This document shows, one piece after another, positions 17,118 to 40,194 of a DNA stretch of 40,325 bases. Where the stretch lies: the UHGV virus genome UHGV-0382853, one strand, 5' to 3'. The notes beneath the pieces were generated by a model that saw nothing but the letters and a program-made list of their open reading frames with translations, did not search any database and was not told where the DNA came from. The stretch is from a virus. Each line of letters opens with the position of its first letter. The stretch's first letter is position 1. Position numbers and translations under genes: made by a program.

Positions 17118-17137
17118 CACCGTGACATGTCATAAAC

Positions 17138-17164
17138 AGCCAGCCTATGAGCTGGCTTTGTTTT
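17138..17164. terminator. bidirectional terminator between Gp49-like gene and terminase
   Basis: agccagc-ctatga-gctggct followed by ttgtttt; A-rich on the other side. Confidence 0.5.
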
Positions 17165-17207
17165 ATCCTCACCAGAGGATATCAATGACATTATCCCCAC
17201 CAGCGGA

Positions 17208-18683
17208 TTAAGCATAGGGATCGTAATCTGTAATGGCCTTGCCTTGCTGGTTCTGCTGCCCGGGAAGTCGCAGGCGCTTTGACACCGGGAAAGCAAACGT
17301 CAGCAGTAGCGCATCGCCTTTACCAGGAGAACGCCCAAGACGCTCTTTGATATCTTCCTTCGGTTCGATAACGATTTTACCGTCCACACGAACTTTGTAC
17401 TCTGCCGCCGACAGGTCGTCTGCAGTTTCCTGGTCATCCAGCATGCCGCCCAGCCTCAGCCATGTCTTACATGAGTTGAACATCTCCCCACGCTTGTTAA
17501 GCATCTGCGGGTCAGTGGACGCACCGCCGAACGGAACAAGTTGCCATGTACGCCCCCAGCCATCACCGATTGACTTCAAACCGGTTCCGTAACCGAAGTC
17601 GATGAACACCGCGTCAGCCTGATACTGGTCTTCAAAGTCAGCGATACGCTTCGCCATTATCAGATCGTCAGTGGTCTTGTTGCCAGTCCACAGCACCTTA
17701 CTGTGCAGCCCCTGCCGCAGGTATATCACAGCGTCATCAACTCCGGAGTATGCCGGGTCAACGCCGATTATCACCGGAGCATGTGCAACCTGCGCAGCGG
17801 TTACCACCCGTTTCATTGCCTCATCAGTAAGACCGGTAGGGATAAACTGCAATTCAGATGCATCAGGGAATATGCCGCGCACACGGATTTTAACGAAGTC
17901 GCTGTCTTCCCCGTAGTCATCAACCCATTTCTGCAACTGCTGTTTGTTAGTGCCTTCCACCGTCCGGCTGTCAATCTGCGCAGTTTTCCAGCGGTGTTTG
18001 TATTTGCGGAAACATTCGCGAAAACGCCCGGTGTTACGTGTAGGGTTTCCGAACGCCACCCAGATAATCTCAGTGTCTTCGTCCGTTAGCGCACCCTCGG
18101 CAACTTCCCACACCAGATCCGCAATGTTCGACGCTTCATCGAATACCACGATGATGCGTTTGCGCTCGTTGTGTAGTCCGGCGAATGCCTCAGTGTTGTG
18201 CTCAGACCAGGGGATTGCGTCAGCTCGCCACCGTTTGTCGTGCCCAGGATCATTGCTGTACATCGCGGTAGCGGTACAGGTAAACCAGTCTTTCGTGATA
18301 GCAAGGTTCGACCACTTGATAATTTCCGGCCAGGTCTTCGTTCGTAGCTGGTTGTCGGTGTTGGCGGTCACCACGACCTTACAATCCTCGCAAGTGGACA
18401 TGCCCCAGTTGATCAGCATTGAGATGAATGCGGATTTACCAATACCGTGACCAGAAGCGCGTGCCAGCATAAGCGGCTGATAGCGCGTCTCTGGATTCTG
18501 CAGGTGATCACGTATCTCTCTGAACGCATCGGCCTGCCACTGACGTGGACCGGTGGCATGTGCCAGTTCAGTACCCTCTTCCCCCCACGGGAACGCATAG
18601 AGGGCATAGCCAAGCGGATCGTGAGTGAACCCTGCAATATCCTCGATTAACTGCTCTTCAGGAGATAACGCTGTATCTGTCAC
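17208..18683 (-). CDS. terminase large subunit
   Basis: 491 aa; Walker A-like ASGHGIGKS; GTG start overlapping the small-subunit stop. Confidence 0.85.
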   Translation of the reverse strand: MTDTALSPEEQLIEDIAGFTHDPLGYALYAFPWGEEGTELAHATGPRQWQADAFREIRDHLQNPETRYQPLMLARASGHGIGKSAFISMLINWGMSTCEDCKVVVTANTDNQLRTKTWPEIIKWSNLAITKDWFTCTATAMYSNDPGHDKRWRADAIPWSEHNTEAFAGLHNERKRIIVVFDEASNIADLVWEVAEGALTDEDTEIIWVAFGNPTRNTGRFRECFRKYKHRWKTAQIDSRTVEGTNKQQLQKWVDDYGEDSDFVKIRVRGIFPDASELQFIPTGLTDEAMKRVVTAAQVAHAPVIIGVDPAYSGVDDAVIYLRQGLHSKVLWTGNKTTDDLIMAKRIADFEDQYQADAVFIDFGYGTGLKSIGDGWGRTWQLVPFGGASTDPQMLNKRGEMFNSCKTWLRLGGMLDDQETADDLSAAEYKVRVDGKIVIEPKEDIKERLGRSPGKGDALLLTFAFPVSKRLRLPGQQNQQGKAITDYDPYA

Positions 18684-19276
18684 TGATTGCCATCCTGACG
18701 TTCTTTCAGTCTCTTCCTGGCTGCCGCTATGCGATCAGCAATTGTCACATTCACATTAACATCCAGGCGTTCTTTGAACGCGTTGACGTCGACGTGCTTA
18801 CCAATCAGTTCGAGGTTCTTCACCTTGTCAGGCCATTTAATTTTTTTGAGGATTGTCTCTATCGAATCCTCGTCCATGTTCATGATGGTAGATGACAGAT
18901 CAAAGCCACTAAGCGTAGTGCGCCAGATTTTCGGCCACTCGCGGATTGGCTTAAGGCTTCCATCGTCGTTGAGGATATCAATCACGTCCATCTGGTCGAT
19001 CTCCACCAGGCGCATGAGAACGTAATCAGCACTGACGCGCATTCGTTTGTTGCGCTCCTCCATCAACTCGGCAATCCGTTTTTGAATGCGTTCATCGCGC
19101 ATCATGACACTGGCTTTAACTGCCGCTGTATTTGGGGAGAATCCTGCGTTAATCGCAGCCTGACTCTGGTTTTCAGGCGTTTTGATGTATGACTGGCAAT
19201 AAGCCTCCTGCATTGCTGTGAGCGGCTTAAATTGCGTTGATTTGCGTTTATAGGTTTTAGGTTCAGCAGGCATCAT
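18680..19276 (-). CDS. terminase small subunit
   Basis: Start moved to ATG 19276 (MMPAEPKTYKRK...) with GGGTGG SD; the track N-terminal extension is discarded; sits directly upstream of the large subunit. Confidence 0.65.
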   Translation of the reverse strand: MMPAEPKTYKRKSTQFKPLTAMQEAYCQSYIKTPENQSQAAINAGFSPNTAAVKASVMMRDERIQKRIAELMEERNKRMRVSADYVLMRLVEIDQMDVIDILNDDGSLKPIREWPKIWRTTLSGFDLSSTIMNMDEDSIETILKKIKWPDKVKNLELIGKHVDVNAFKERLDVNVNVTIADRIAAARKRLKERQDGNQ

Positions 19277-19293
19277 AACCACCCTGGTAATTG

Positions 19294-19308
19294 TTACCGT
19301 CGTGGTAA
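19294..19308. promoter_or_regulatory. TTACC-N5-GGTAA palindrome immediately upstream of terminase small subunit
   Basis: ttaccgtcgtggtaa between the terminator hairpin and the terminase start. Confidence 0.5.
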
Positions 19309-19320
19309 TAGTAACATGCA

Positions 19321-19345
19321 AAATAAAGCCGCCATAGTTGGCGGC
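19321..19345 (-). terminator. rho-independent terminator preceding the late (terminase) operon
   Basis: Hairpin gccgcca-tagt-tggcggc with T-tract on the minus strand (plus-strand aaataaa). Confidence 0.55.
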
Positions 19346-19394
19346 AGTATTCAAAACCCATCAAATTCATCATGCATAATCTACTCGTGACATG

Positions 19395-19733
19395 TCACAC
19401 TATTAATTTCGTTTCATGCCAGCCTTTAGTCACCCAGCATTGCGAGTCACCATTGCACGGGCATGAATTAACTGGAACTCTCTCGCCGCACTTACCGCAA
19501 CGTTTTCTGCTGATCGATTTTATACGCCCGCGCACGCGTGCATCATCCTGGCGGATCAGTAACGCTATATACTCACCAAATTCGTAAGGCGCACGCCCGG
19601 GGCGACGCGTGGCACAGTTACGCTCCAGCATTTCAATTTCCTGAGCATCAAGCACAATCTCCAGCTTACGTACACCGGATGCAGCTTGTCTGGCTCTCTG
19701 AGCGGCTTTGCGCTCTGCTGCTGATTTAGCCAT
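19395..19733 (-). CDS. zinc-ribbon protein, candidate late-gene regulator
   Basis: 112 aa; C-terminal CGKCGER...CPCNG...C cysteine cluster; last gene before terminator and terminase; AGGAAA SD. Confidence 0.4.
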   Translation of the reverse strand: MAKSAAERKAAQRARQAASGVRKLEIVLDAQEIEMLERNCATRRPGRAPYEFGEYIALLIRQDDARVRGRIKSISRKRCGKCGERVPVNSCPCNGDSQCWVTKGWHETKLIV

Positions 19734-20097
19734 TCTGATTTTCCTGCATCATGAGAAAGACAATCATGGCGGCGCGGAGTGGGTTGTTGTCTATGGTAAT
19801 AAATTTACAAAATCTATCCGCCTCCCACCAATATTCATTCTTCATTCCAGGATTATTTCTTTCGTATGCACATATGCTGATCTGATGTTTTGCGATTACA
19901 GGCCATGCAGCTCTCGGATCATTGCAGTAGTCAGGTAAAGGGTTTAATGGCTCAAAAGTTGTATCAGTATTTCCGTAATACCATTTGTTGGTGTTATTCC
20001 CTGATGTTTCCGGTTTACACGCCCAAAGGCCTTTAAAAATTATGTCTCCTACCATTCTGTTAATTTCAAAATCACTTAACTGTGAATAGTCCATCAT
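19726..20097 (-). CDS. DUF2591/NinX-like phage protein
   Basis: 123-aa ORF beginning MMDYSQLSDFEINRMVG; nin-region position. Confidence 0.4.
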   Translation of the reverse strand: MMDYSQLSDFEINRMVGDIIFKGLWACKPETSGNNTNKWYYGNTDTTFEPLNPLPDYCNDPRAAWPVIAKHQISICAYERNNPGMKNEYWWEADRFCKFITIDNNPLRAAMIVFLMMQENQNG

Positions 20098-20726
20098 TTC
20101 ACCTCCTGCGGCGGTTCTGGTAGAGGCATCCAGTGGGTTACGTCATCCAAGATATATCCTGATAAATACGTGAAAGCTCTATATTTTTTGTAATCAATTG
20201 GATTTACAACCCAGTTCCAATATGCGGCCACGATTTCACCTTGACTAAATGCCAGTAACATTTTGGTGTCTTCCGGCATTCGCTCACTACAGCTTATCCA
20301 ACCATCCGGAGTTACCGGAGAGTTGCCCGATAGCTTGTTCAACTTGTAATTCTGGCTTACAGGTTGGCTACCATGAAGCATGGCAGCACGGCAGGCATTC
20401 CAGCCTCTCACCTCTGCAATAGCGGCAACAGCATCGACCGCGTACATTTTAAGAGGGTTGGGCATTGGTTTTTCTTCAGGTACTACTGGCATTGGAGGGG
20501 CGGCGTATACTTCAATAATCCCATTATCAATAGGCCATTCTCCATCCTTGAGGTAGTCACTTGTGCCGTCAACTTGCTGTTCTGCAATGTGGAATGCACC
20601 TATTGGTTTTGCTTCCAGCGATGCCAGAGCAATTCGTGCCAGTTCCATTTGTTCACCACGGGTAAGCCCGTTTTCAAGCGGATTTTTAATGAACAATTCA
20701 ATACGTTCTTTGGTAATAGTGGTCAT
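20094..20726 (-). CDS. DUF551-domain phage protein
   Basis: C-terminal ...HWMPLPEPP motif typical of DUF551; AAGGAGT SD. Confidence 0.5.
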   Translation of the reverse strand: MTTITKERIELFIKNPLENGLTRGEQMELARIALASLEAKPIGAFHIAEQQVDGTSDYLKDGEWPIDNGIIEVYAAPPMPVVPEEKPMPNPLKMYAVDAVAAIAEVRGWNACRAAMLHGSQPVSQNYKLNKLSGNSPVTPDGWISCSERMPEDTKMLLAFSQGEIVAAYWNWVVNPIDYKKYRAFTYLSGYILDDVTHWMPLPEPPQEVK

Positions 20727-20736
20727 GTGTTACTCC

Positions 20737-21000
20737 TTAACCCGCAGTGCTTTCAACTGATGAGGGGAATAAAATCTTTTCATCAAATCCGGCATTCATA
20801 TCATGGACAGCAACACACCAATCCATCGACGAACGATTATCAAGAGCCTCCATGATTTCATCCATGCGGCGCAGGTCATACAGGTAAATGCTTTTATCGC
20901 CAATGGTGTAAAAACCAATTTTTTTCGGTGATGGGCAGCGATCAAGAACGTCCTGTAATTCGTTCAACCATGCCCGTTCTTTTTTTGTTAAAGTTGCCAT
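20737..21000 (-). CDS. hypothetical protein
   Basis: Start moved to ATG 21000 (MATLTKKERAW...) with AAGGAGAG SD. Confidence 0.4.
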   Translation of the reverse strand: MATLTKKERAWLNELQDVLDRCPSPKKIGFYTIGDKSIYLYDLRRMDEIMEALDNRSSMDWCVAVHDMNAGFDEKILFPSSVESTAG

Positions 21001-21001
21001 A

Positions 21002-21688
21002 TCACTCTCCTTTGATGCGAATGCCAGCGGCACGGGAATCATTCCATCGCTTTACTTCTTCACGAATTACGTCAATGCATTCTTTCGAATCCATTAGGTA
21101 ATCTTCATCAAAAAGCCTTTCCTGTTCGTTTTCTATCGCAACAATGATTGCTTCAACTAACTTTTGTGCCTGAGAACCACTTTCTAACTCTGCAATGCGC
21201 TTCTCTGCGGCTTCCAGCTTCTCGCGCATATCGTCAACGTACTCGACCAGAGATCCGCCAGCAGGAATTTCGCACTCCTCGACCAGTTGGAAGTAGATAT
21301 CAGCTGCGGCCCGTGTGTTGCTATGCCTAGCGTCGCCCATCTCACCTTCACGAAGAGCATCGCGTTCGGCGGTAAGATTGGCTATTTTGCTGTCTTTGCC
21401 TTCCAGCTCAACGCGAAGCCTCCCTACCGTTAGCGCAATATCCTCGTTCTCCTGGTCGCGGCGTTTTATGTATTGCTGGTTTCTTTCCCGTTCATCCAGC
21501 AGTGCCAGCACGGTTTCTGGTCCGGCCAGAAATTTGAAGGCGTTGAGCGCATCAATATCCACACCGTAATCTTTAAGTTCCTGTTCGCTTATCAGATCAT
21601 CATCAACTGGCAACATTAACAGGCGTTCCATTGCCGGAATTGCACGTTCTGCCGCCTCACGCAGTGCCTGATAGTTAATTTTGGTCAT
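21002..21688 (-). CDS. Ead/Ea22-like coiled-coil protein
   Basis: 228 aa, acidic, coiled-coil-rich, typical of lambdoid Ea22-like genes. Confidence 0.4.
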   Translation of the reverse strand: MTKINYQALREAAERAIPAMERLLMLPVDDDLISEQELKDYGVDIDALNAFKFLAGPETVLALLDERERNQQYIKRRDQENEDIALTVGRLRVELEGKDSKIANLTAERDALREGEMGDARHSNTRAAADIYFQLVEECEIPAGGSLVEYVDDMREKLEAAEKRIAELESGSQAQKLVEAIIVAIENEQERLFDEDYLMDSKECIDVIREEVKRWNDSRAAGIRIKGE

Positions 21689-21689
21689 A

Positions 21690-21989
21690 TCACATCACCC
21701 TGAAGCCGTTGCATTTACGTAAAAAATCGCAGATATAGCCCTTCATTTTTTCGTGCCAATCTCGATCATTCCCATTGCACCAACCATCAGGTGGAGTCCA
21801 GTTTTCTATCAGAGCAGCCATTTTCTTTGCTTTCGCCGGAGTAGCTGTTGCGGTATCGCAGTAATGACGAGTGTCAACCAACGTATCCATACCATCGATA
21901 TCAAGTACGCAAAACCATGTGTGATTCGGCATTTCAACAGATGGTATTTGTTGCCCGCGTCGACGTTTATCAATAAGACATACAGTCAC
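21690..21989 (-). CDS. hypothetical protein
   Basis: GTG start with strong AAGGAGG SD; coupled to the neighbouring gene. Confidence 0.4.
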   Translation of the reverse strand: MTVCLIDKRRRGQQIPSVEMPNHTWFCVLDIDGMDTLVDTRHYCDTATATPAKAKKMAALIENWTPPDGWCNGNDRDWHEKMKGYICDFLRKCNGFRVM

Positions 21990-22603
21990 TGGTTGCCTCC
22001 TTTGCGAAGCTGGGCAGCAAAGTCAACTAACCACTCAGTCATTTCAACCTTCCCTACCAGGTCTGAACCAGGGTGCATACAGCAATCACTCTGCGCCGCT
22101 TTGAAATCCTTATACTCATATTCTTGGGCCACCAGATTTTTTGCAGCTTCTATAGCAGCATCCACCCCCTGCGCCCGCACTTCAGCCAGGCATTTGCGAA
22201 ACTCGGAAACGTACTGTTCGACGCTCATTCCCCAGCTAAGTGGACATTCATTGAATGTTTCGCCTTCGTGCTCTTCATCAGGTAGCTCTTTGGTAAAGAA
22301 CTCACGTTCAATGGCGTGGAGTGTGTCAGCAAAACGACGTAAGTTACTCAAACCTGTCGTAATGGAGAATTCAGGAGCATCACATCCGACGCCCATCTGC
22401 TGATAAACGGCGGTTTTGAAGGCCTTAAGCCCCGCATTCTCCGCCGCAAGCGCATTAGCACGCACCAGTTGCACTTCCAGTTGCGTTGCCAAATCGCTGA
22501 TCAGCTTTGCCACACTGCGCATATCAACGGCACCACATTCTGCTTTCAGTTCCGAAGCCATCTCATGCCCGGCGGCAACTAACCCTTTGATATTACTTTC
22601 CAT
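21986..22603 (-). CDS. hypothetical protein
   Basis: 205-aa ORF; coupled to the downstream gene (GTGA overlap). Confidence 0.4.
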   Translation of the reverse strand: MESNIKGLVAAGHEMASELKAECGAVDMRSVAKLISDLATQLEVQLVRANALAAENAGLKAFKTAVYQQMGVGCDAPEFSITTGLSNLRRFADTLHAIEREFFTKELPDEEHEGETFNECPLSWGMSVEQYVSEFRKCLAEVRAQGVDAAIEAAKNLVAQEYEYKDFKAAQSDCCMHPGSDLVGKVEMTEWLVDFAAQLRKGGNQ

Positions 22604-22664
22604 CTTTACCCTCGCTTATCCACATAACTTATTGATTACATTGATAACTAAAAAGATCGTCGAT

Positions 22665-23009
22665 TCAGAACTCTTCGATGTTCCAGCCACCACCTGCTTT
22701 CTTTGGTTTAACCGTTACCCCGATGATTCGGAACGGATACTGATCTGCGGCGACTTTGGTTTTCACCCTGGCGTCGTCGGTCCAGAAACCTTTCACTTCG
22801 TGCAGTTCCATCTCGCCGGTGGCGAGCATCACAGCAAAATCGGGCGTATAGAACGTGTTGTCAGCTAACCGCAACTTGATACCCTCAAATCGATACCAGA
22901 CGATTTCCCCTGCACGTTTACGCTGCTCAAGGTGCTGGCAATACGCAGATTCTGTTTTGTTCATCTGGCCTGTTTTGAGTCGACCAAGAGCCTGTATCTG
23001 TTTTCTCAT
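22665..23009 (-). CDS. DUF1064-like phage protein
   Basis: 114 aa; motif ...YTPDFAV...ELHEVKG...; position after replication genes. Confidence 0.45.
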   Translation of the reverse strand: MRKQIQALGRLKTGQMNKTESAYCQHLEQRKRAGEIVWYRFEGIKLRLADNTFYTPDFAVMLATGEMELHEVKGFWTDDARVKTKVAADQYPFRIIGVTVKPKKAGGGWNIEEF

Positions 23010-23012
23010 GAT

Positions 23013-23027
23013 TTACCTCTAAGGTAA
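23013..23027. promoter_or_regulatory. TTACC-N5-GGTAA palindrome
   Basis: ttacctctaaggtaa, 4 bp upstream of the start codon at 23009 (overlaps its RBS region). Confidence 0.5.
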
Positions 23028-23074
23028 TTAAAAACCACATAAGACACGAAATCAATAGAGTTTAGAATATTTTG

Positions 23075-23089
23075 TTACCCAACAGGTAA
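23075..23089. promoter_or_regulatory. TTACC-N5-GGTAA palindrome
   Basis: ttacccaacaggtaa in the P/DUF1064 intergenic region. Confidence 0.5.
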
Positions 23090-26104: not shown

Positions 26105-26117
26105 ATTGCCTATTTGA

Positions 26118-26132
26118 TTACCTAACGGGTAA
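26118..26132. promoter_or_regulatory. operator-like palindrome at early-left promoter
   Basis: ttacctaacgggtaa; TTGACA at 26152-26157. Confidence 0.5.
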
Positions 26133-26179
26133 TTTTTTTAACTCATATCTATTGACATCAAACCAGATACGCATAATTA

Positions 26180-33976: not shown

Positions 33977-36162
33977 GAAACTTCCCCATTGGTTGAAAAT
34001 ATGGCTCCTCCAACGCCAAGTGTATTTCGTGTTGTGCTCAACCTCAGAGGGCTGGAGTCAGAATTAGAATATCCTGTAGCAGAAATAAAAGATCCTCCAC
34101 TAATAGTCAACTGCGGAACATCGGCTATATCTGAATAAGTTCTGTCAGCAACAGTATTATTTATAGCCACATATGATCCAAAAAAACTTCTTATTGTTTG
34201 GTTTTTAACTTTACTTCCTTCAATGGTTATCCTACTACCACAGTCGGCAATAAATCCTGAATCTGCATCCAGCGTTGCATTCATAAAAGAAGCTTCAGAT
34301 CTCTCTACATCAATCCATCTAATATCTTTTGTGGGATTTGCACCAAATACATGACAAATATTAGAGTTAAACCTTACACCATCTTGGAGGTGCATTAATT
34401 TTTTTATATCTGTACCCCATAGCCTTGGAAAATTAACAGATGCTCCTGCATGGCAATCAAATCCCAGCTCAGCCCCTGAGATATCTACAGCCTTTCCTGA
34501 AATAACAGCACCAGTGTCTGCATTAACGGCTGTTCCACAATTGCGCATATCATTACCAGCAACATCAACGCAACCCGCACCATCAATACGCACACCAAGT
34601 GCACATCCATAAAAACCTTTTTCAATATTTGGTTCAAGGACTTTACCACTTGTTTCTGCATCACTTTCTTCAACGTCATGTCGTCTTGCATCAACATATG
34701 CTGTATGAATGCAGGTTAATCCACGATATGAGCAATGTATAGTTTTATGGTCGCGTATATTAACATTTGAACCATCTCTTACATTCCATCCTATATAACA
34801 ATAGCTTGCACTTGACCCCTGAAAATCTGCTTTAACATTATAAATACAATTAACTGACGCAACCGTACTCTCTGTGCACCGTTCAAACTTGCTTACAGGC
34901 ATTGATGCCTTGACATTATTTACCAGTTGCAGGGAAGAGTATCTGCTATAAGAAAAATCACATACGTAATACCCTTCTGGCATATATGCAGCAACACTTT
35001 CCTCATCAGGAGCACATCCGGTATGATATGCACTAATTTTTGCACCAAAACTACCATGAATTCCAACGTAGAACTTTCGAGCACCTGAATACGGATAGAA
35101 ATTAAGTTCAGCTTTTTGAGTTACAATAAATGCACAAACATCGCTATCATCTCTATTTTCTTCGATCTGAATAGCAAATACAGGACTTTTTGCTGCATCG
35201 CAAATGTAAAATAAATACTTGTATTCGTAATACGTTCTAACGATTTTAGTAAACAAACGAGTGTCAGAGAAAACCACTGAGTCTTCTGATGTTATTTTAA
35301 TCCAAGACAAATCAACACCTGAACTGAATTCAATTTGATAGTTGATAATATGCCCGGTCTTAATTCTTATTTCGCAGAAAGCATTACCACCATCCCACAT
35401 AGGTCTCATTGACTGGGCTGCAATGATTGCATCTTTGAGTGTAGGGTAATCACCCCATTCGCCAACAGTAATAACAAAAGTATAATATGAGTTAAAAACA
35501 GCGGCATTTTTGCCTTTGGATATCAACTCCTTAATCATAAAAATATTATCTTCGTAATCACAAGGAGAAATTATATCCCTCATTTTGCTTTGAAATGTTC
35601 GTTGTCTTGCCCCGCTTCCTGACGGTATAAACCAACCAAAACCACCAACAACCCCGGCGATTGCAGCATCGACATAATTACGCATTGAGCGATTATTTAC
35701 AGCATCCTGCTCAAGTGATGGATCTGCAAGGTTAGAAATTCTGTTTTGCTTTGCATCGTAATATTTTGCAAGCAGAGAGGGCTTCATCAATGCACGTCTG
35801 AACCACCCAAAACATTGCTGGATCAGCATCGTCAGGTAGTCAAAGGCATCTTCATGCACTTCGGGGAAAAATTTTCCCTGATTGCGAAGGTCTGTCTCCT
35901 GCACTACATCAAGCACACGATCTATCGTAATTCGCCATCCAGTAGCAAGCGGAGACGGAAGAACCACAGAACCGCCACTATAAGTGCCCGCCCCAGTTAC
36001 CGTATAACCGGTATCCAGGACCAATTCTGTTACGTTCCCGTTCAGGTCAGACACCTGAACAACCAGGTCTGATTTTCTGAAAATTCGAAAAGTATACGGA
36101 AACGATGTCGTAACGCCGTTACCGGTGTATTCGTTGTGGTCAACTTCGGTTGAGACCGTCAT
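33973..36162 (-). CDS. tailspike / tail fibre with conserved N-terminal anchor and probable beta-helix depolymerase C-terminal domain
   Basis: 729 aa; N-terminus ...YTGNGVTTSFPYTF...LDTGYTV...ITIDRVL...ETDLRNQG resembles podoviral tail-fibre N-terminal domain; the C-terminal two thirds are AT-rich with Cys/Asn/Ser/Gly-rich repeats. Confidence 0.65.
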   Translation of the reverse strand: MTVSTEVDHNEYTGNGVTTSFPYTFRIFRKSDLVVQVSDLNGNVTELVLDTGYTVTGAGTYSGGSVVLPSPLATGWRITIDRVLDVVQETDLRNQGKFFPEVHEDAFDYLTMLIQQCFGWFRRALMKPSLLAKYYDAKQNRISNLADPSLEQDAVNNRSMRNYVDAAIAGVVGGFGWFIPSGSGARQRTFQSKMRDIISPCDYEDNIFMIKELISKGKNAAVFNSYYTFVITVGEWGDYPTLKDAIIAAQSMRPMWDGGNAFCEIRIKTGHIINYQIEFSSGVDLSWIKITSEDSVVFSDTRLFTKIVRTYYEYKYLFYICDAAKSPVFAIQIEENRDDSDVCAFIVTQKAELNFYPYSGARKFYVGIHGSFGAKISAYHTGCAPDEESVAAYMPEGYYVCDFSYSRYSSLQLVNNVKASMPVSKFERCTESTVASVNCIYNVKADFQGSSASYCYIGWNVRDGSNVNIRDHKTIHCSYRGLTCIHTAYVDARRHDVEESDAETSGKVLEPNIEKGFYGCALGVRIDGAGCVDVAGNDMRNCGTAVNADTGAVISGKAVDISGAELGFDCHAGASVNFPRLWGTDIKKLMHLQDGVRFNSNICHVFGANPTKDIRWIDVERSEASFMNATLDADSGFIADCGSRITIEGSKVKNQTIRSFFGSYVAINNTVADRTYSDIADVPQLTISGGSFISATGYSNSDSSPLRLSTTRNTLGVGGAIFSTNGEVS

Positions 36163-36266
36163 GTTAAATCTCCAGATAGTCGCAGCACCCGTTGCGCCGC
36201 ATATCTGGTTATTCTATTACCTGAAAAACCACATATGGATAAAAAGGCTGTAAATACGAATAGATA

Positions 36267-36281
36267 TTACCTTTCAGGTAA
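36267..36281. promoter_or_regulatory. operator-like palindrome between tailspike and antirepressor
   Basis: ttacctttcaggtaa; half-site ttacctgaa at about 36217. Confidence 0.5.
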
Positions 36282-36320
36282 TTTGCAAAACGTGCTGGAT
36301 AGCAAACAAATTATTTGCTA

Positions 36321-36336
36321 CTGTATAAATATACAG
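36321..36336. promoter_or_regulatory. LexA (SOS) box
   Basis: taCTGTataaatatACAGtt: exact CTGT-N8-ACAG with AT-rich spacer, 22 bp upstream of the ATG at 36358. Confidence 0.75.
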
Positions 36337-36357
36337 TTATTGCATGGAGAAGATAAG

Positions 36358-36615
36358 ATGCAGCGGTATCACTATCCACTGGAAGACGGATTTACCGAAA
36401 GGATTCACACGCCGGGAGGCGTCAGGTCACTGGTGGAGGGATCGCACTTGATGAAATTACTCCGGGATCTCGATAAGGATGGATTTAATGTCGATGGCCC
36501 ACTTGCCGAACTGACTGCACTGATTAACTACGTTACCAGCTCACAGATGTCTATGCGGGATCTGCAAACACATCTCGACTATTGTGCCGAACAATTACGA
36601 AAACAAACCCGGTAA
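36358..36615 (+). CDS. small antirepressor-like protein, paralog of the C-terminal domain of the AntA-type antirepressor
   Basis: 85 aa from ATG 36358 (GGAGAAG SD); aligns with the C-terminus of the 37766..38422 product (IH.P.GV...LM.LL..L..DG..V.G..AELT...LRD.QTH); the track start 36235 lies upstream of the LexA box and is discarded. Confidence 0.6.
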   Translation: MQRYHYPLEDGFTERIHTPGGVRSLVEGSHLMKLLRDLDKDGFNVDGPLAELTALINYVTSSQMSMRDLQTHLDYCAEQLRKQTR

Positions 36616-36622
36616 ATTTAAA

Positions 36623-36638
36623 GGCCGCAAGAGCGGCC
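36623..36638. terminator. bidirectional terminator hairpin
   Basis: ggccgc-aaga-gcggcc flanked by T-rich sequence on both strands; between convergent genes. Confidence 0.5.
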
Positions 36639-37366
36639 TATCGTTTCGCTTTGTGCTCGTCCCAGCACGTTTTGCACCATGCCATTAAGCCATCCGCATT
36701 TTGATTATTAGGGTAAAAGCTTGTTCGTTTTCTGCGGACATTACAAATTGGGCACCACTTCATATGGCGTGTATTCTTTGGGCCATCGAGACACCTTGCA
36801 CACCACTTAGTCAATCCATCTGGATTTTTTGACGATTTCCTGAATTTTTCATATGGTAGGTTTATTCTGCATCGCAAGCACTGCTTGCTACCACTTGAAA
36901 CTCTGTTAGCTGATTCTTCTTTTGGCGGCGATACAGAAGGTATTCTTGCTGGCTCTGATACTGCCTGAGGTGCTTTTTTAGATGACTGAGACGATATGTC
37001 ATCACCAGGGAATCTTCCATGATATGCCGGACGCATTGACACTCCAGGTGGAAGCTCAGCTGTAAACGGCTTTGGCTGAATCAGTTGCCTCTCTTTTGCT
37101 AACTCCTGCTGTTTATAATATGTCTGGATTACCGCACTATCATAAGCAGGAGGTGCGGAAATATTAGGCGCATTACCTCCAGTTTTTTGAAACTGAGTAG
37201 AGGTGTGTTCTATCACCTGTGTACGATTAATCGTTATCTCCCCATCTTCGGTCTTTATCGTTTTGTTATGATTAACGACCGTACGATCAGAGATCTTAGT
37301 CTTGTTCTGGTTGATAACGTAAATAATCACCGCAACCACACCAACAACTATCCAGAAAACTTCCAT
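36638..37366 (-). CDS. membrane-anchored protein with duplicated C-terminal zinc-ribbon (CxxC-N-CxxC x2)
   Basis: 242 aa; N-terminal TM helix (FWIVVGVVAVIIYVI); C-terminal repeats C.RC...DGL..WC..C; GAGGAAAA SD. Confidence 0.5.
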   Translation of the reverse strand: MEVFWIVVGVVAVIIYVINQNKTKISDRTVVNHNKTIKTEDGEITINRTQVIEHTSTQFQKTGGNAPNISAPPAYDSAVIQTYYKQQELAKERQLIQPKPFTAELPPGVSMRPAYHGRFPGDDISSQSSKKAPQAVSEPARIPSVSPPKEESANRVSSGSKQCLRCRINLPYEKFRKSSKNPDGLTKWCARCLDGPKNTRHMKWCPICNVRRKRTSFYPNNQNADGLMAWCKTCWDEHKAKR

Positions 37367-37386
37367 TGCTTTTCCTCACAATAACA

Positions 37387-37401
37387 TTACCTTAAAGGTA
37401 A
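37387..37401. promoter_or_regulatory. operator-like palindrome
   Basis: ttaccttaaaggtaa, about 21 bp upstream of the minus-strand start at 37366. Confidence 0.5.
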
Positions 37402-37479
37402 TATCTTGCTTTCAGGTGATCAAGCGTTAAACGCAATCAACCAAATACGGTTGATTTTAATATTTCTTCGCGTTTATCA

Positions 37480-37494
37480 TTACCTTTGCGGTAA
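37480..37494. promoter_or_regulatory. operator-like palindrome
   Basis: ttacctttgcggtaa at the head of the antirepressor leader. Confidence 0.5.
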
Positions 37495-37585
37495 ATTTAC
37501 ATTGCACTCCTCTTGTGCCATAGTAATCGGGCACTGGCAAAATCCAGTGCCGGGATTGGTCTCCCGGATTACTAAGTGGCGCATA

Positions 37586-37607
37586 CCACGCCAGACGTGG
37601 TTTTTTT
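37586..37607 (+). terminator. rho-independent terminator inside the antirepressor leader
   Basis: ccacg-ccaga-cgtgg followed by ttttttt. Confidence 0.55.
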
Positions 37608-37765
37608 ATGCGTATAGCACAGTCATGCCAGAATTATGGTGGGCTGAATGGGGGTCCGAAAGGACGCCGGTACCACTTAGGCCGGTAAGACCAACTCCGT
37701 TCAGTTCACCACCATCTGATTGGTCTCAGCGGTGGTGATGTAATTCGCTAAGTGGAGACGCCATC

Positions 37766-38422
37766 ATGAACGCTCAACTCATCCCCGTATTCAACGGCAC
37801 TATATCTAACGAAACAGCCCTACTTTGTAATGCCCGCGATCTGCACACTTTTTTAGGTGTTAAAAAGGTGTTTGCAGCATGGATTACAAATCGCATATCA
37901 GAATACGAATTCATTGAAAATCAAGACTATATTTTGCTTTCCAATTTGGGAAAGCAAACATCTGGTAGAGGCGGCCACAACCGCAAAGAGTACCACCTCA
38001 CCCTTGATACAGCCAAAGAGCTGGCGATGGTCGAGCGTAACGAAAAAGGTCGCCAGGTGCGACGCTACTTCATTGAATGCGAGAAACGTTTAAGACAACA
38101 AGAAACAAAAGTGGAGAAGGTCTTGTCAGGCTTCATGCCCGCCATTATGGAGGCGATCAAGCTGGAAGACAAAAAAGAATACAGCGCCCCACTGAAGCCC
38201 GGCTACCGCAGCCTGATTCATTCTCCGTCTGGTGTTCTCGGACTGACGGAGAACTCACTGCTGATGAATCTGCTGAACCAGTTACAGGAAGACGGGCACG
38301 ACGTATCGGGCGCGGCGGCGGAGCTGACCACCATGTTCTGCTACATCGTCGGTGTGAGCAAATGCCTGCGTGATATCCAGACGCACGCGGAGTACATCAA
38401 CGACAAGGCAGGGTTCTTCTGA
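37766..38422 (+). CDS. antirepressor (AntA/AntB N-terminal domain)
   Basis: 218 aa; N-terminal IPVFNGT...LCNARDLHTFLGVKKVFAAWITNRISEYEFIENQDYIL typical of AntA domain; C-terminal domain paralogous to the 36358 product. Confidence 0.7.
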   Translation: MNAQLIPVFNGTISNETALLCNARDLHTFLGVKKVFAAWITNRISEYEFIENQDYILLSNLGKQTSGRGGHNRKEYHLTLDTAKELAMVERNEKGRQVRRYFIECEKRLRQQETKVEKVLSGFMPAIMEAIKLEDKKEYSAPLKPGYRSLIHSPSGVLGLTENSLLMNLLNQLQEDGHDVSGAAAELTTMFCYIVGVSKCLRDIQTHAEYINDKAGFF

Positions 38423-38431
38423 CAGAACGGC

Positions 38432-38453
38432 GGCACAGGGATGTGCCTTTAAA
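38432..38453 (+). terminator. possible terminator after antirepressor
   Basis: ggcaca-ggga-tgtgcc followed by tttaaata. Confidence 0.4.
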
Positions 38454-38495
38454 TAATTCTGTACAGATTGCAGACCGGGGGTGAATAGCGTACTA

Positions 38496-38510
38496 TTACC
38501 TTAAAGGTAA
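38496..38510. promoter_or_regulatory. operator-like palindrome
   Basis: ttaccttaaaggtaa, about 26 bp upstream of the ATG at 38537. Confidence 0.5.
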
Positions 38511-38536
38511 ACCATGTGTTTACATGAGGAGGAGAT

Positions 38537-38746
38537 ATGGGATTTTGGTTCGCTCGTACAAAAACGAGGGATAATGCACCCAGCCCTCAGGCAAAAAATG
38601 CAGAAGTTCCGGCGTCAGCGCAGGTTAACAAGCGTGGTGGTGTGTATATCTCATCACAGCAAATTTCTGAGCTTCCTGAGGTTAAGGAGATGCGTCGTCT
38701 CGCTGCTGCAATCGTTAAACAGGATCTTGCCACTGTAAGGAAATAG
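38537..38746 (+). CDS. small hydrophilic protein
   Basis: 69 aa; strong SD GAGGAGG 5 nt upstream; stop overlaps the next gene's GTG start. Confidence 0.45.
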   Translation: MGFWFARTKTRDNAPSPQAKNAEVPASAQVNKRGGVYISSQQISELPEVKEMRRLAAAIVKQDLATVRK

Positions 38747-39612
38747 TGTTGTTAGCTCTTCTAATTATCCCCATTCTGGTTAGTGGTTATATTATGATAA
38801 CCGCTAACCAGTATCATTATTTCCGTTTATACCGACATGAAGGCCAGCTTCTTTATATGAAAGTAGCTGCATTAGGTACATATTGCCTTGTTGCTTCGGT
38901 AATAATTGCCGCATTTATAAAATATAAATATCCTGATTTTCACCTAGTTCACGATATGGTGGAAACTTTTAATGTAACGTCAAAACCAGAAACAGATAGA
39001 ATTTACATGTGGCTGCTTCTTCTCTCAGCCACATCCATTTGCTTCTCTTTGTGTTATGTGTCTGTTGTGTGGGTGAAAGATTTTCTTCTTGGTTGTTTTT
39101 ATAAACGTGATATTTACGAGCAAAAAACAGAGGCAATGAAGGCCAGAGTACTGCGAAAAACTTACTCGCAAGGTTCTTTAGACTTACTATTGCTTGATGC
39201 TATTGAATCGGATCCTAAACGACCAATGCTGATTACTTTATCATCAAACAAAGTGTATGTTGGAATAATAAATGGTTCTGGTGAACCAACGGAAAATCAG
39301 GGTCCGCATCAGCACATATCTTTTGTTCCTTTAATGTCAGGATACAGGAACAAAGACAACTTATCTGTCACATTCACTAATGCTTATCCAGGAGAAATAC
39401 AGGTCAAGCGGACTGCAGCAATAAGAGGAATTAGCAGAAAGAAAGTGCCAGGACTTGAGATCATGGTGTCTATTGACGAAATAAGTTATATATCATGGTT
39501 TGATTTTGAAGTATATAAAGCAACAAATAACAAAGTAGAATCCAGGGGGCACGTTATTCGTGTTACCAAAAATGGAAGAAATATATATCAAAGAAATAGC
39601 AAAAAAGAATAG
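38746..39612 (+). CDS. membrane protein (3 N-terminal TM helices plus about 170-aa soluble domain), AT-rich
   Basis: 288 aa; GTG start coupled to the upstream stop; AT-rich codon usage unlike neighbouring genes; followed by a strong terminator. Confidence 0.5.
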   Translation: MLLALLIIPILVSGYIMITANQYHYFRLYRHEGQLLYMKVAALGTYCLVASVIIAAFIKYKYPDFHLVHDMVETFNVTSKPETDRIYMWLLLLSATSICFSLCYVSVVWVKDFLLGCFYKRDIYEQKTEAMKARVLRKTYSQGSLDLLLLDAIESDPKRPMLITLSSNKVYVGIINGSGEPTENQGPHQHISFVPLMSGYRNKDNLSVTFTNAYPGEIQVKRTAAIRGISRKKVPGLEIMVSIDEISYISWFDFEVYKATNNKVESRGHVIRVTKNGRNIYQRNSKKE

Positions 39613-39633
39613 CCCGCGCTGCGGGCTTTTTTG
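39611..39633 (+). terminator. rho-independent terminator
   Basis: agcccgc-gct-gcgggct followed by ttttttg. Confidence 0.7.
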
Positions 39634-39704
39634 TGGACGAAACAAAAGCCAGTGCTACACTCATTGACGCCACATTGAGGTGGCTTATAGATGGAAATTT
39701 CACA

Positions 39705-39866
39705 ATGAAAAAAGCATTTGCTGCACTGTTCGTTTTGTTGTCTCTGGTAGCTTCAACTCAGGCCTTTGCCGGTCGTTGTCAGCACGACAGCGATACTGCC
39801 GCTGACGGCTCCCGCTGCGGTGGGCGTTCTGCGGATTCCCGCCCGGGTGGCGGTGGCATTCGTTAA
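39705..39866 (+). CDS. small secreted protein
   Basis: 53 aa from the internal ATG (MKKAFAALFVLLSLVASTQAFA signal peptide); weak SD; the track start 39633 adds an unlikely N-terminus. Confidence 0.35.
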   Translation: MKKAFAALFVLLSLVASTQAFAGRCQHDSDTAADGSRCGGRSADSRPGGGGIR

Positions 39867-39871
39867 AAACA

Positions 39872-39889
39872 AGGCCGCGAAAGCGGCCT
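39872..39889. terminator. hairpin between convergent genes
   Basis: aggccgc-gaaa-gcggcct, near-identical stem to the hairpin at 36623. Confidence 0.4.
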
Positions 39890-39897
39890 GTGACATG

Positions 39898-40194
39898 TCA
39901 CGTCCCTTTTCTGAATGATAGCCATTCGAAAAATGATGACATTCCACCGCAGACAATAGCAAAGATGATCCCACCAAAGAAGAGAAGGCCAGCCTGCCAC
40001 CACTCCCACCGCCATACATCCACAGCGCCAACCATACCAACAATCGCTCCAACAAATGGAATATAGCTCACGATGAAAGCAATGGGGGCTGCAATTATCC
40101 AGTGCAATCCCCACCATGATTCAAGCCCAGCCATAATTGCTGCCAACTGAAAAAGACCAACGACGATATAAACAATGAATCCTATAGCTTGCAT
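39898..40194 (-). CDS. small membrane protein
   Basis: 98 aa, 3 predicted TM helices, Trp-rich; AGGTGA SD. Confidence 0.45.
   Translation of the reverse strand: MQAIGFIVYIVVGLFQLAAIMAGLESWWGLHWIIAAPIAFIVSYIPFVGAIVGMVGAVDVWRWEWWQAGLLFFGGIIFAIVCGGMSSFFEWLSFRKGT

What the first reader, a model, noticed from the sequence alone, without database searches (positions are those of the whole stretch)
17122..39901. Perfect 12-bp palindrome GTGACATGTCAC at three gene 3' ends
gtgacatgtcac occurs at about 19387 and about 39890, and gtgacatgtcat at about 17122. Each lies just after a stop codon and next to a hairpin or terminator. Three copies of a 12-mer in 40 kb is far above chance. It could be a protein-binding site, an RNA processing or termination element, or a conserved junction motif.
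Basis: seen in the sequence. Interest (0 to 1): 0.45.

Follow-up and report, generated by a model that had tools for sequence, protein, structure and literature searches.

The report
Operator sites of an uncharacterised phage regulator
The repeated 12-base palindrome is real and is most likely the DNA docking site of a small, unstudied phage protein encoded right next to one copy; the pair is conserved across many unrelated temperate phages, and the site looks like the bacterial chromosome site matS with one base missing.

Summary
GTGACATGTCAC is exact at 19387 and 39890, and has one mismatch at 17122 (0.14 expected by chance). The window is a complete, circularly permuted epsilon15/phiV10-like podophage genome. 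Epsilon15, SPN1S and phiV10 carry the motif at the same three syntenic places.

The motif travels with one gene, window ORF 19395..19733(-), of the epsilon15 gp49 / N15 gp46 family (PHROG 536, no Pfam). Its TGA stop codon lies inside the motif.
- Of 38 prophage loci from about 30 species, 37 have GTGAC-NN-GTCAC within 10 kb (73 sites against 0.86 expected).
- In 18 of the 38, the site overlaps the gene's stop codon in the same register.
- Unrelated phages that carry the gene (ZF40, N15, Vibrio K233) each have three copies. Lambda and Sf6, which lack it, have none.

Best reading: these are operators of this regulator, placed at transcription-unit boundaries. What binding does there (roadblock and autoregulation, or MatP-like bridging) is inferred, not shown. 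No paper describing the motif was found.

The parts
19386..19399 (.). Site 1: cGTGACATGTCACa, an exact 14-bp Y-GTGAC-AT-GTCAC-R site. It overlaps the TGA stop codon (19395-19397, minus strand) of the regulator gene.
   Evidence: The same register (G-TGA-C) is found in 18 of 38 homologous loci.
19395..19733 (-). Gene of the presumed cognate DNA-binding protein (112 aa; epsilon15 gp49 / phiV10 p55 / N15 gp46 family). It has an N-terminal basic helix plus a ribbon-helix-helix-like module, then a C-terminal Cys4 knuckle.
19328..19345 (-). Intrinsic terminator hairpin (GCCGCCAACTATGGCGGC followed by a T-run) at the end of the early-right operon, 41 nt downstream of site 1.
   Evidence: The equivalent stem-loop is annotated in the epsilon15 record.
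17121..17134 (.). Site 2: cGTGACATGTCATa, with one mismatch at the outermost core position. It lies between the convergent genes for the Sf6-gp66-like protein and the large terminase.
   Evidence: The site is exact at the syntenic place in epsilon15 (2142), phiV10 (2262) and SPN1S (2174).
17138..17157 (+). Intrinsic terminator hairpin 4 nt downstream of site 2. Its T-run is on the plus strand.
16746..17117 (+). Sf6 gp66 / N4 gp49-family gene (PF13876). Its stop codon is 4 nt before site 2.
17208..18683 (-). Large terminase gene, convergent on site 2.
18680..19354 (-). Small terminase ORF (PF03592). The TTG start listed at 19354 runs through the terminator and two repressor operators, so the real start is probably further downstream.
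39889..39902 (.). Site 3: tGTGACATGTCACg, an exact 14-bp site. It overlaps the TGA stop (39898-39900, minus strand) of a small membrane-protein ORF at the end of the virion structural operon.
39872..39889 (-). Intrinsic terminator hairpin (AGGCCGCTTTCGCGGCCT followed by TGTTTTT) directly abutting site 3.
39898..40194 (-). 98-aa hydrophobic ORF. Its stop codon lies inside site 3.
14083..14094 (.). One-mismatch copy GTGCCATGTCAC (with Y/R flanks) inside a coding region. It is shared with phiV10 but not with epsilon15 or SPN1S, so it is a doubtful member.

Best explanation
The three copies are operator sites for the phage's own small DNA-binding protein, encoded by ORF 19395..19733 on the minus strand. 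The full consensus is the 14-bp palindrome Y-GTGAC-NN-GTCAC-R.

How the protein probably reads the site: it is predicted to be a ribbon-helix-helix-type dimer. Its conserved N-terminal basic helices would read the invariant YGTGAC half-sites, and its beta-ribbon would lie over the variable central dinucleotide. A C-terminal Cys4 zinc knuckle is available for contacts with other proteins.

Where the sites sit: one operator is built into the stop codon of the protein's own gene, at the end of the early-right operon just upstream of the terminase genes. The other two sit at the convergent junctions that close the terminase segment and the virion structural operon. Each lies beside an intrinsic terminator.

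What is shown: conservation, linkage of the motif to this gene, and the symmetry of the site.

What is inferred: that the protein binds the site, and what binding does. My preferred mechanism is that the bound dimer acts on elongating RNA polymerase at transcription-unit boundaries. At its own stop codon it would cut short or limit its own mRNA and read-through into the terminase genes, giving negative feedback as LacI does at the O3 operator at the 3' end of lacI. At the convergent junctions it would reinforce the terminators against read-through and antisense transcription.
For: Chance is excluded.
- The window has 4 matches with up to 1 mismatch against 0.14 expected.
- It is the only recurring 12-bp palindrome.

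The sites are syntenically conserved.
- Epsilon15, SPN1S and phiV10 carry the motif at the same three places. Some copies carry a single mismatch: site 2 in the window, and phiV10's site 1 (GTGACATGTTAC, split by the ends of its record).
- The adjacent terminator hairpins have diverged in sequence.

The motif is linked to the gene.
- In 38 prophage loci from about 30 species, fetched only through the protein, 37 have at least one GTGACNNGTCAC within 10 kb.
- In 18 of them the site overlaps the gene's TGA stop in one register, and in 23 it lies within 50 nt.
- There are 73 sites against 0.86 expected in 960 kb.

Unrelated phages that share only this gene also carry the site.
- Myovirus ZF40 has three exact copies, one of them 3 nt after the gene.
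- N15 has three GTGAC(TG/CA)GTCAC, one on the stop codon.
- Vibrio phage K233, with a 31% identical protein, has three.
- Lambda and Sf6, which lack the gene, have none.
- Of 120 IMG/VR pieces found through the 14-mer alone, 31 contain the gene within the piece held.

The site looks like a target for a dimeric protein.
- Positions -1 and +12, which were not part of the search pattern, are Y and R in 67 of 68 non-identical sites each.
- Those two positions vary independently of each other (T..G 25, T..A 20, C..G 12, C..A 9).

The protein fits the role.
- PHROG 536 is labelled 'transcriptional regulator'.
- With a 71-sequence alignment the AlphaFold model has pLDDT 93.6.
- The basic N-terminal helix is conserved in all clades.
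- The predicted beta-strand differs exactly in the clades whose site centre differs (AT/CT, GC, TG).

The sites sit at unit boundaries.
- A terminator lies next to each of the three sites.
- The epsilon15 record annotates repressor operators upstream of terS, gp3 and the tailspike gene. This makes these separate transcription units, bounded by the motif sites.
Against: - No binding experiment exists, and no paper describing the motif was found.
- There is no Pfam or significant sequence match to any ribbon-helix-helix family.
- The sites are not at promoters, which is unusual for a ribbon-helix-helix regulator. They occur singly rather than in cooperative arrays.
- In ZF40-like prophages the commonest secondary sites lie inside coding regions (an early-left gene and the 3' part of the cII-like gene). 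In N15 one lies inside repA. A boundary or terminator role therefore cannot be general.
- In the compact convergent junctions, closeness to the terminators could simply reflect lack of space.
- An Aeromonas phage homolog (about 30% identity) has no site in the 15 kb examined.
- The co-variation of protein and site centre rests on only three or four clades.
Confidence: 0.6

Rival explanations
1. MatP-like architectural element. The same protein binds the sites, but its job is structural rather than transcriptional: bridging or marking two or three distant sites on the phage chromosome. This could serve looping, condensation, exclusion of SMC/MukBEF-type complexes or subcellular positioning, as MatP does at matS in the chromosome terminus.
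For: - The half-sites are identical to matS (GTGAC[AG]N[TC]GTCAC, PMC3603311; E. coli consensus GTGACATTGTCAC, PMC8669397). The phage site is that consensus minus one central base.
- Sites are single and kilobases apart, and may lie inside genes, as matS sites do.
- In ZF40-like prophages two sites flank the immunity region about 2.1-2.5 kb apart. In epsilon15-like phages two sites flank terS-terL about 2.2-2.6 kb apart.
- Hosts of phages carrying the family are Enterobacterales, Vibrio and Aeromonas. From my own knowledge, these are the orders that have MatP and MukBEF.
Against: - There is no sequence homology to MatP (hhalign probability 0.1-0.4%).
- The protein lacks MatP's first three helices and its C-terminal coiled coil, which from my own knowledge mediates tetramerisation and ZapB binding.
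- This reading does not explain why one site is so often built into the gene's own stop codon, or why the sites hug terminators in epsilon15-like phages.
Confidence: 0.2
2. RNA-level element. The motif acts in the transcript, as a small hairpin or a protein or RNase recognition site just upstream of terminators, affecting termination, antitermination (nut- or put-like) or 3'-end stability.
For: - All three copies in the window are transcribed at gene 3' ends next to terminators.
- The protein's N-terminus is arginine-rich, as in N-type antiterminators (the comparison is from my own knowledge).
Against: - The motif folds at only -1.2 kcal/mol, no better than shuffled sequence.
- The conserved flanking Y and R are not complementary more often than chance (32 Watson-Crick pairs against 34 not).
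- N15's asymmetric centre appears in both orientations relative to transcription.
- L090 has the centre inverted relative to L099 and L106.
- No Rfam family matches at the sites.
- Many sites in other phages are far from any terminator.
Confidence: 0.04
3. Host-factor site. The motif is bound by a host protein (MatP itself or another host dimer), and its linkage to the phage gene is only inherited proximity.
For: - The site resembles matS.
- No binding data exist for the phage protein.
Against: - The spacer is 2 bp, not 3, in all 73 sites. True matS 13-mers are absent from the window and from nearly all related loci.
- Prophages are reported to avoid matS (PMC3603311).
- The motif tracks the phage gene across unrelated genomes, and is absent from two phages of the same hosts that lack the gene.
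- The site centre co-varies with the phage protein's beta-strand.
Confidence: 0.05
4. Recombination junction or 'boundary sequence'. The motif plus terminator is a short conserved linker at module boundaries, where homologous recombination shuffles phage modules, and has no regulatory role.
For: - At site 3, phiV10 and its close relatives match the window over only 59 nt (terminator plus motif, 94.9% identity). PAS61 matches over only 32 nt. The genes on both sides are unrelated.
- Sites 2 and 3 border variable accessory genes.
Against: - The 12-14 bp core is invariant while the adjoining hairpins diverge, so selection acts on the core itself.
- The same core occurs inside coding regions, and in phages with entirely different architectures.
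- A 14-bp identity is too short for efficient homologous exchange (my own knowledge).
Confidence: 0.05
5. Promoter element. GTGACA is a -35-like hexamer on both strands, and the palindrome marks divergent weak promoters.
For: - Both exact copies were picked up by the promoter scan as GTGACA, 18 nt, (C/A)ATGAT.
- Epsilon15 site 1 has GTGACA, 17 nt, TAAATT, read directly from the sequence.
Against: - Promoter-like hits are no more frequent than in shuffled sequence.
- The -10-like element is not conserved in other relatives.
- At sites 2 and 3 the terminator hairpin occupies the space where a -10 element would be.
- The conserved outer Y/R and the GTCAC half are not explained by this reading.
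Confidence: 0.03

Closest known systems
MatP / matS (Ter macrodomain organiser of E. coli and related gamma-proteobacteria)
   Same: - The half-sites are identical (GTGAC ... GTCAC).
- Sites are single palindromes scattered kilobases apart, some inside genes.
   Different: - The spacer is 2 bp, not 3 (12-bp core against the 13-bp matS).
- There is no detectable sequence homology.
- The protein lacks most of MatP's four-helix bundle and its coiled coil, and carries a Cys4 zinc knuckle instead.
- It is phage-encoded, with two or three sites per 40 kb, one of them on the gene's own stop codon.
Ribbon-helix-helix repressors and their operators (Arc, Mnt, CopG, omega, ParD/TacA antitoxins)
   Same: - It is a small dimeric DNA binder with a predicted beta-alpha-alpha module.
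- The operator is symmetric.
- The gene is physically linked to one operator, which suggests autoregulation.
   Different: - Classical members bind tandem or multiple repeats at their own promoter. Here the sites are single and lie at the 3' end of the gene or at operon ends.
- No Pfam ribbon-helix-helix model matches.
- There is an extra N-terminal basic helix and a C-terminal zinc knuckle.
LacI at the O3 operator overlapping the 3' end of lacI (Abo et al. 2000, EMBO J 19:3762; reference seen in PMC2998420; the mechanism is from my own knowledge)
   Same: The operator of a regulator is placed at the end of its own coding sequence, where the bound protein can block RNA polymerase and produce stop-less transcripts. 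This gives negative feedback.
   Different: - It is an analogy only. The protein family differs, and O3 works through looping with O1 at a promoter.
- Nothing of this kind has been tested for the phage protein.
DksA/TraR-family C4 zinc-finger proteins (binders of the RNA polymerase secondary channel)
   Same: - Residues 49-110 align with nearly the whole of TraR: a long helix, CxxCG..(I/L)P..G...C, then a C-terminal helix.
- hhalign gives 71.5% probability and E 3.6e-5.
- The only PDB sequence hits are YbiI and TraR, at E about 0.02.
   Different: - The scores are below significance, and Pfam PF01258 does not match.
- The equivalent of TraR's channel-inserting helix is here the second helix of the ribbon-helix-helix core, so it is probably not free.
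- The spacing of the second cysteine pair differs.
Epsilon15/SPC32H prophage repressor operators (ATTACC-N5-GGTAAT)
   Same: They are another dispersed palindromic operator family in the same genome: 16 matches with up to 2 mismatches in the window against 1.2 expected.
   Different: The sequence, positions (upstream of gene clusters, at promoters) and protein (a helix-turn-helix repressor) all differ. The motif studied here is not one of the annotated repressor sites.

Membership tests
MatP/matS system | 13-bp site GTGAC-RNY-GTCAC | tested here: not met
   All 73 sites have a 2-bp spacer. The window has no 13-mer of the matS type. The matS definition is taken from PMC3603311 and PMC8669397.
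MatP/matS system | Protein homologous to MatP by sequence | tested here: not met
   hhalign of the family profiles A2 and A3 against E. coli MatP (sequence verified as identical to 4d8j_B) gives probability 0.1% and 0.4%. There is no Pfam MatP hit.
MatP/matS system | MatP-like fold of the DNA-binding part | tested here: inconclusive
MatP/matS system | Bridging or tetramerisation, and interaction with ZapB or MukB | not testable with these tools
   The protein lacks a C-terminal coiled coil. No interaction data exist.
Ribbon-helix-helix (CopG/Arc/MetJ) regulators | Beta-alpha-alpha fold forming an intertwined dimer | tested here: inconclusive
   - The AlphaFold model (pLDDT 93.6) has an extended segment at 20-29, a helix at 30-42 and a helix at 52-75.
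- No Pfam match.
- Weak NCBIfam hit to YbfE, E 0.052.
- The dimer was not modelled.
Ribbon-helix-helix (CopG/Arc/MetJ) regulators | Symmetric or repeated operator recognised by the dimer | tested here: met
   The site is a 14-bp palindrome with independent Y/R flanks. Actual binding was not tested.
Ribbon-helix-helix (CopG/Arc/MetJ) regulators | Operator at the promoter of its own operon | tested here: not met
   The gene-linked site overlaps the stop codon, not the promoter.
DksA/TraR C4 zinc-finger family | Match to the zf-dskA_traR signature | tested here: inconclusive
   Pfam PF01258 was not reported even at E up to 10. hhalign against a TraR alignment gives 71.5% probability and E 3.6e-5. 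hmmsearch of PDB finds YbiI and TraR at E 0.014-0.02.
N/nut- or put-type RNA antitermination sites | Stable RNA stem-loop in the transcript, with orientation-specific action | tested here: not met
   The hairpin is worth -1.2 kcal/mol, with z near 0. The flanks are not complementary. Both orientations occur relative to transcription.
Intrinsic terminators (the hairpins beside the motif, not the motif itself) | G+C-rich stem-loop followed by a T-run | tested here: met
   17138-17157 (+), 19345-19328 (-) and 39889-39872 (-). The motif lies outside the stems.
Epsilon15-type prophage repressor operators | ATTACC-N5-GGTAAT | tested here: not met
   The sequences of the annotated epsilon15 repressor sites were read and differ from the motif. 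The window has its own set of such sites elsewhere.

The most novel reading that the evidence does not exclude
Temperate phages of Enterobacterales and Vibrio carry their own MatP/matS-like system. In this reading a MatP-shaped ribbon-helix-helix protein is fused to a DksA/TraR-like zinc module and recognises a 'matS minus one base' site. That would keep it separate from host MatP, whose sites prophages avoid. From two or three such sites the protein would either organise the phage chromosome (bridging, or exclusion of SMC/MukBEF-type complexes) or dock onto elongating RNA polymerase as a DNA-tethered, site-specific modulator. Neither activity is currently known for a phage factor.
Probability: 0.15. 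Interest if true: 0.85.

Novelty: new variant of a known kind. Interest (0 to 1): 0.6.

Why it matters
- The gene with its site is present in 637 of 5,426 complete E. coli genomes, always annotated as 'hypothetical protein'. It also occurs in temperate phages of four different architectures (epsilon15-like podophages, ZF40-like myophages, N15-like telomere phages, P2-like Yersinia phages) and in Vibrio phages.
- Pairing this orphan protein family with a precise 14-bp site gives a testable regulon in phages whose late-gene control is poorly understood. Epsilon15-like phages have no known late regulator.
- It lets sites be predicted in thousands of prophages.
- It raises a specific evolutionary question: why is the site the host's matS with one base removed, and why is MatP the closest structural match?
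- An operator built into the regulator's own stop codon is also an unusual and compact design for feedback.

Tried and rejected
1. Prophage repressor operators. The epsilon15 record annotates 'repressor' sites near the same places, but they read ATTACC-N5-GGTAAT, which is a different regulon.
2. Genome end, cos or pac site. The phiV10 record is cut inside the motif (GTGA|CATGTTAC). However, the other two copies and the ZF40, N15 and Vibrio copies are not at genome ends, and the terminase is of the headful type (annotation). I dropped this idea.
3. Methylase or restriction target (CATG/ACATGT). The centre varies (AT, GC, TG, CT, AC), so CATG is not the conserved part.
4. Lambda 'ice' element in the 3' part of cII, as an analogue of the ZF40-type site in the cII-like gene. 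The sequences are unrelated.
5. Q-like antiterminator role for the protein. ZF40 and N15 carry a separate Q homologue.
6. The first AlphaFold run, with a shallow alignment, gave a poor model (pLDDT 66) and meaningless Foldseek hits. The run with 71 diverse sequences was confident.
7. Pfam, NCBIfam and PDB sequence searches gave no significant family.
9. The Dupaigne 2012 MatP-matS structure paper and Abo 2000 are not held in the library. Details of MatP-DNA contacts and of the LacI-O3 roadblock therefore rest on my own knowledge.
10. Motif frequency in the host chromosome could not be measured with the tools available.

Full report
**1. The observation.** A scan of the window finds GTGACATGTCAC exactly at 19387-19398 and 39890-39901. 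It finds GTGACATGTCAT at 17122-17133 and a further one-mismatch copy, GTGCCATGTCAC, at 14083-14094 inside a coding region. That makes four matches with up to one mismatch, against 0.14 expected from dinucleotide-preserving shuffles. It is the only 12-bp perfect palindrome that recurs in the window.

- The copy at 19387 contains the TGA stop of ORF 19395..19733(-). A terminator (19345-19328) follows 41 nt downstream.
- The copy at 39890 contains the TGA stop of ORF 39898..40194(-) and abuts a terminator hairpin (39889-39872).
- The copy at 17122 lies 4 nt after the stop of ORF 16746..17117(+) and 4 nt before a terminator (17138-17157).

**2. What the window is.** The window is an epsilon15/phiV10-like podophage (genus Uetakevirus), in reverse orientation relative to the phiV10 and epsilon15 records. 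Joining the window's end to its start gives a sequence that is contiguous, at 99% identity over its whole length, in phages HEMP4 and phiv142-3. The window is therefore a complete, circularly permuted genome, and site 3 lies at the end of the virion structural operon.

**3. Conservation in relatives.** Epsilon15, SPN1S and phiV10 each carry the motif at the same three syntenic places:
- after the large terminase gene, next to the Sf6-gp66-like gene;
- at the end of the structural operon;
- on the stop codon of the last early-right gene (epsilon15 gp49, phiV10 p55).

In phiV10 the third copy is split by the ends of the record and has one mismatch. The hairpins beside the motif differ in sequence among these phages while the motif does not. 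The 'repressor' sites annotated in the epsilon15 record read ATTACC-N5-GGTAAT, so they are a different regulon. The window has its own set of those sites: 16 matches against 1.2 expected.

**4. The key finding: the motif travels with one gene.**

ORF 19395..19733(-) encodes a 112-aa protein with no Pfam family. It belongs to PHROG 536, labelled 'transcriptional regulator'. Homologues are found in phages of quite different kinds.

*Unrelated phages that carry a homologue also carry the site.*
- Pectobacterium myovirus ZF40 shares essentially only this gene (67% identity). It has three exact copies of GTGACATGTCAC, one of them 3 nt after the gene.
- N15 has three copies of GTGAC(TG/CA)GTCAC. One overlaps the TGA stop of gene 46, one lies inside repA, and one lies upstream of the antirepressor operon.
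- Vibrio phage K233, whose protein is 31% identical, has three copies in the 23.7 kb examined.
- An Aeromonas phage with a homologue of about 30% identity has none in the 15 kb examined, only a degenerate copy on the stop codon.

*A scan of one genome per species with a family alignment returned 38 prophage loci from about 30 species*.
- In 37 of them at least one GTGACNNGTCAC lies within 10 kb.
- In 18 the site overlaps the gene's TGA stop in the same register (G-TGA-C).
- In 23 it lies within 50 nt of the stop.
- Across 960 kb of such loci there are 73 sites against 0.86 expected.

*Controls and the reverse test.* Lambda and Sf6 lack the gene and have no such site. Of 120 IMG/VR pieces found only through the 14-mer TGTGACATGTCACA, 31 contain the gene within the piece held.

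**5. Anatomy of the site.** I aligned 68 non-identical sites. The positions just outside the 12-mer were not part of the search pattern, yet they are a pyrimidine on the left and a purine on the right in 67 of 68 sites each. The real site is therefore the 14-bp palindrome Y-GTGAC-NN-GTCAC-R.

The two flanks vary independently: T..G 25, T..A 20, C..G 12, C..A 9, which is exactly the product of the marginal frequencies. That pattern is expected if a dimeric protein reads each half-site on double-stranded DNA. It is not expected from a base-paired stem.

The central dinucleotide is AT in most sites. It is GC in a Yersinia clade, TG/CA in N15-like phages and CT/AG in a Pantoea group.

Other evidence against an RNA element:
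- As RNA the motif folds at -1.2 kcal/mol, no better than shuffles.
- Asymmetric centres occur in both orientations relative to transcription.
- Rfam has nothing at the sites.

**6. The protein.**

The family is small, with 208 representatives at 50% clustering in 1.84 billion proteins. With a 71-sequence alignment AlphaFold gives a confident model (pLDDT 93.6):
- a basic helix (residues 5-19);
- an extended segment (20-29);
- a helix (30-42);
- a long helix (52-75);
- a Cys4 knuckle (76-99);
- short C-terminal helices.

Sequence comparison with E. coli MatP is negative. I verified the MatP sequence against PDB entry 4d8j.

The C-terminal half aligns weakly with the DksA/TraR zinc-finger family. 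The PDB sequence hits YbiI and TraR have E of about 0.02. hhalign against a TraR alignment gives 71.5% probability and E 3.6e-5.

Across clades, the N-terminal basic helix (ERKxxQRxR) is conserved, as are the GTGAC half-sites. The predicted beta-strand differs in exactly those clades whose site centre differs:
- K-L-E-L-x-L-D in the AT and CT clades;
- E-I-R-x-R-L-E in the GC clade;
- R-R-D-W-V-L-E in the TG clade.

This fits a model in which the ribbon lies over the centre and the basic helices read the half-sites. It rests on only three or four lineages.

**7. The matS resemblance.** matS is defined as GTGAC[AG]N[TC]GTCAC (PMC3603311), and the E. coli consensus is GTGACATTGTCAC (PMC8669397). 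The phage site is that consensus with one central base removed. The same study reports that prophages contain no matS at all and appear to avoid it.

Two independent lines therefore point the same way: the site sequence and the top structural match. However, two defining features of the MatP/matS system were tested and not met, namely the 13-bp site and sequence homology of the protein. I do not file the phage pair as a member. I record it as 'works like', possibly distantly related or convergent.

**8. What binding would do.**

*Epsilon15-like phages.* The three sites lie at the ends of transcription units. These are the end of the early-right operon (with a terminator, repressor operators and the terminase genes downstream) and two convergent junctions, each beside a terminator. 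An operator on the regulator's own stop codon recalls lacI and its O3 operator. There, bound repressor blocks RNA polymerase and yields truncated messages. The reference is cited in PMC2998420; the mechanism is from my own knowledge.

My preferred reading is that the bound dimer acts on elongating polymerase. It would limit its own expression and read-through into the terminase genes, and reinforce the boundaries against read-through and antisense transcription.

*Evidence against this being the general role.*
- In ZF40-like prophages the commonest secondary sites lie inside coding regions. One is in an early-left gene, where the site is read in frame as C-D-M-S. The other is in the 3' part of the cII-like gene. 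Others lie between the scaffold and capsid genes.
- In N15 one site lies inside repA.
- The sites are single and far apart, like matS.
- Closeness to terminators in the compact junctions may be forced by lack of space.

A MatP-like architectural or bridging role is therefore a serious rival. I cannot separate the two by computation.

**9. Other readings considered** (details under rival explanations and Tried and rejected):
- A host-factor site is unlikely, given the spacer, the linkage to the phage gene and the controls.
- A recombination 'boundary sequence' is descriptively true at site 3, where only 59 nt are shared with phiV10 between unrelated flanks. It does not explain an invariant 14-bp core that also occurs inside genes.
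- A -35-like promoter element is picked up by the scan, but no more often than in shuffled sequence, and it is not conserved.
- A methylase target is ruled out because the centre varies.
- A genome end is ruled out, even though the phiV10 record is cut inside the motif.

**10. Novelty and verdict.** No paper in the searchable library mentions the motif or a phage MatP-like system. The gene is annotated 'hypothetical protein' in the 637 of 5,426 complete E. coli genomes that carry it.

In kind, the finding is a regulator-operator pair, which is known. The family is uncharacterised and the arrangement is unusual: an operator in the gene's own stop codon, sites away from promoters, a site that is matS minus one base, and a MatP-like fold. 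I rate it a new variant of a known kind, with interest 0.6.

The core claim is that the sites are the cognate sites of this protein family. I hold it at about 0.75-0.8. With the specific boundary and roadblock mechanism attached, my confidence is 0.6 at most, and the mechanism is the weaker part.

Noticed in passing
window 6859-38511 (16 sites, e.g. 19275-19291, 19293-19309, 26117-26133, 36266-36282, 37386-37402): A second dispersed palindrome family, ATTACC-N5-GGTAAT, has 16 matches with up to 2 mismatches against 1.2 expected. It corresponds to the prophage repressor operators annotated in the epsilon15 record. The sites sit upstream of gene clusters, including terS.
   Followed up: partly
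window 37531-37607 and 37632-37716 (+): Rfam matches to isrK (67.7 bits) and C4 antisense RNA (61.2 bits), just upstream of ORF 37766..38422. This looks like a P1/P7/N15-type antisense-RNA control of an antirepressor operon. Parts of this region are not shared with phiV10.
   Followed up: no
window 16471-16547 (+): A tRNA-Arg (anticodon TCT) lies between the structural genes and the Sf6-gp66-like gene.
   Followed up: no
window 40325 -> 1 junction: The window's two ends are contiguous in phages HEMP4 and phiv142-3 (one alignment, 100% coverage). The window is therefore a whole circularly permuted genome of 40,325 bp.
   Followed up: yes
L001 (phiV10 NC_007804.2) positions 39101-39104 and 1-8: The phiV10 reference record is linearised inside the motif (...GTGA | CATGTTAC...). 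Its third copy is therefore invisible in the linear record and carries one mismatch.
   Followed up: partly
window 18680-19354 (-); L001 41-715: The small terminase ORF, as listed and as annotated in phiV10, starts at a TTG. That start would place the early-operon terminator hairpin and two repressor operators inside the coding sequence, so it is probably annotated too far upstream.
   Followed up: no
window 38776-38811 (+): A long, nearly perfect inverted repeat (15-bp stem, 6-nt loop; CTGGTTAGTGGTTATATTATGATAACCGCTAACCAG) lies at the start of ORF 38746..39612. Its role is unknown.
   Followed up: no
L245 (Vibrio phage K233) 6769-6781: This is a true matS-type 13-mer (GTGACACCGTCAC), in a phage that also has three 12-mer sites. 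It is the only matS-type site seen in any locus that carries the family.
   Followed up: no
L098, L100, L101 about 10349-10370 (Serratia and Symbiopectobacterium prophages): In these ZF40-like prophages the regulator gene is followed not by the motif but by a perfect LexA-box-like sequence (TACTGT-N8-ACAGTA). The next gene may therefore be SOS-controlled.
   Followed up: no
L083 (ZF40) 5125 and 7622; 28 and 11 further loci: In ZF40-like prophages the motif lies inside two coding sequences, an early-left gene of about 105 aa and the cII-like gene. It is read in frame as Cys-Asp-Met-Ser while the surrounding residues diverge. This suggests a DNA-level constraint imposed on a protein sequence.
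   Followed up: partly
L086 11675/11708 and L108 10355/10387: In a Yersinia P2-like phage and a Providencia prophage, two sites lie 32-33 bp apart (three helical turns). This hints at cooperative binding in some genomes.
   Followed up: no
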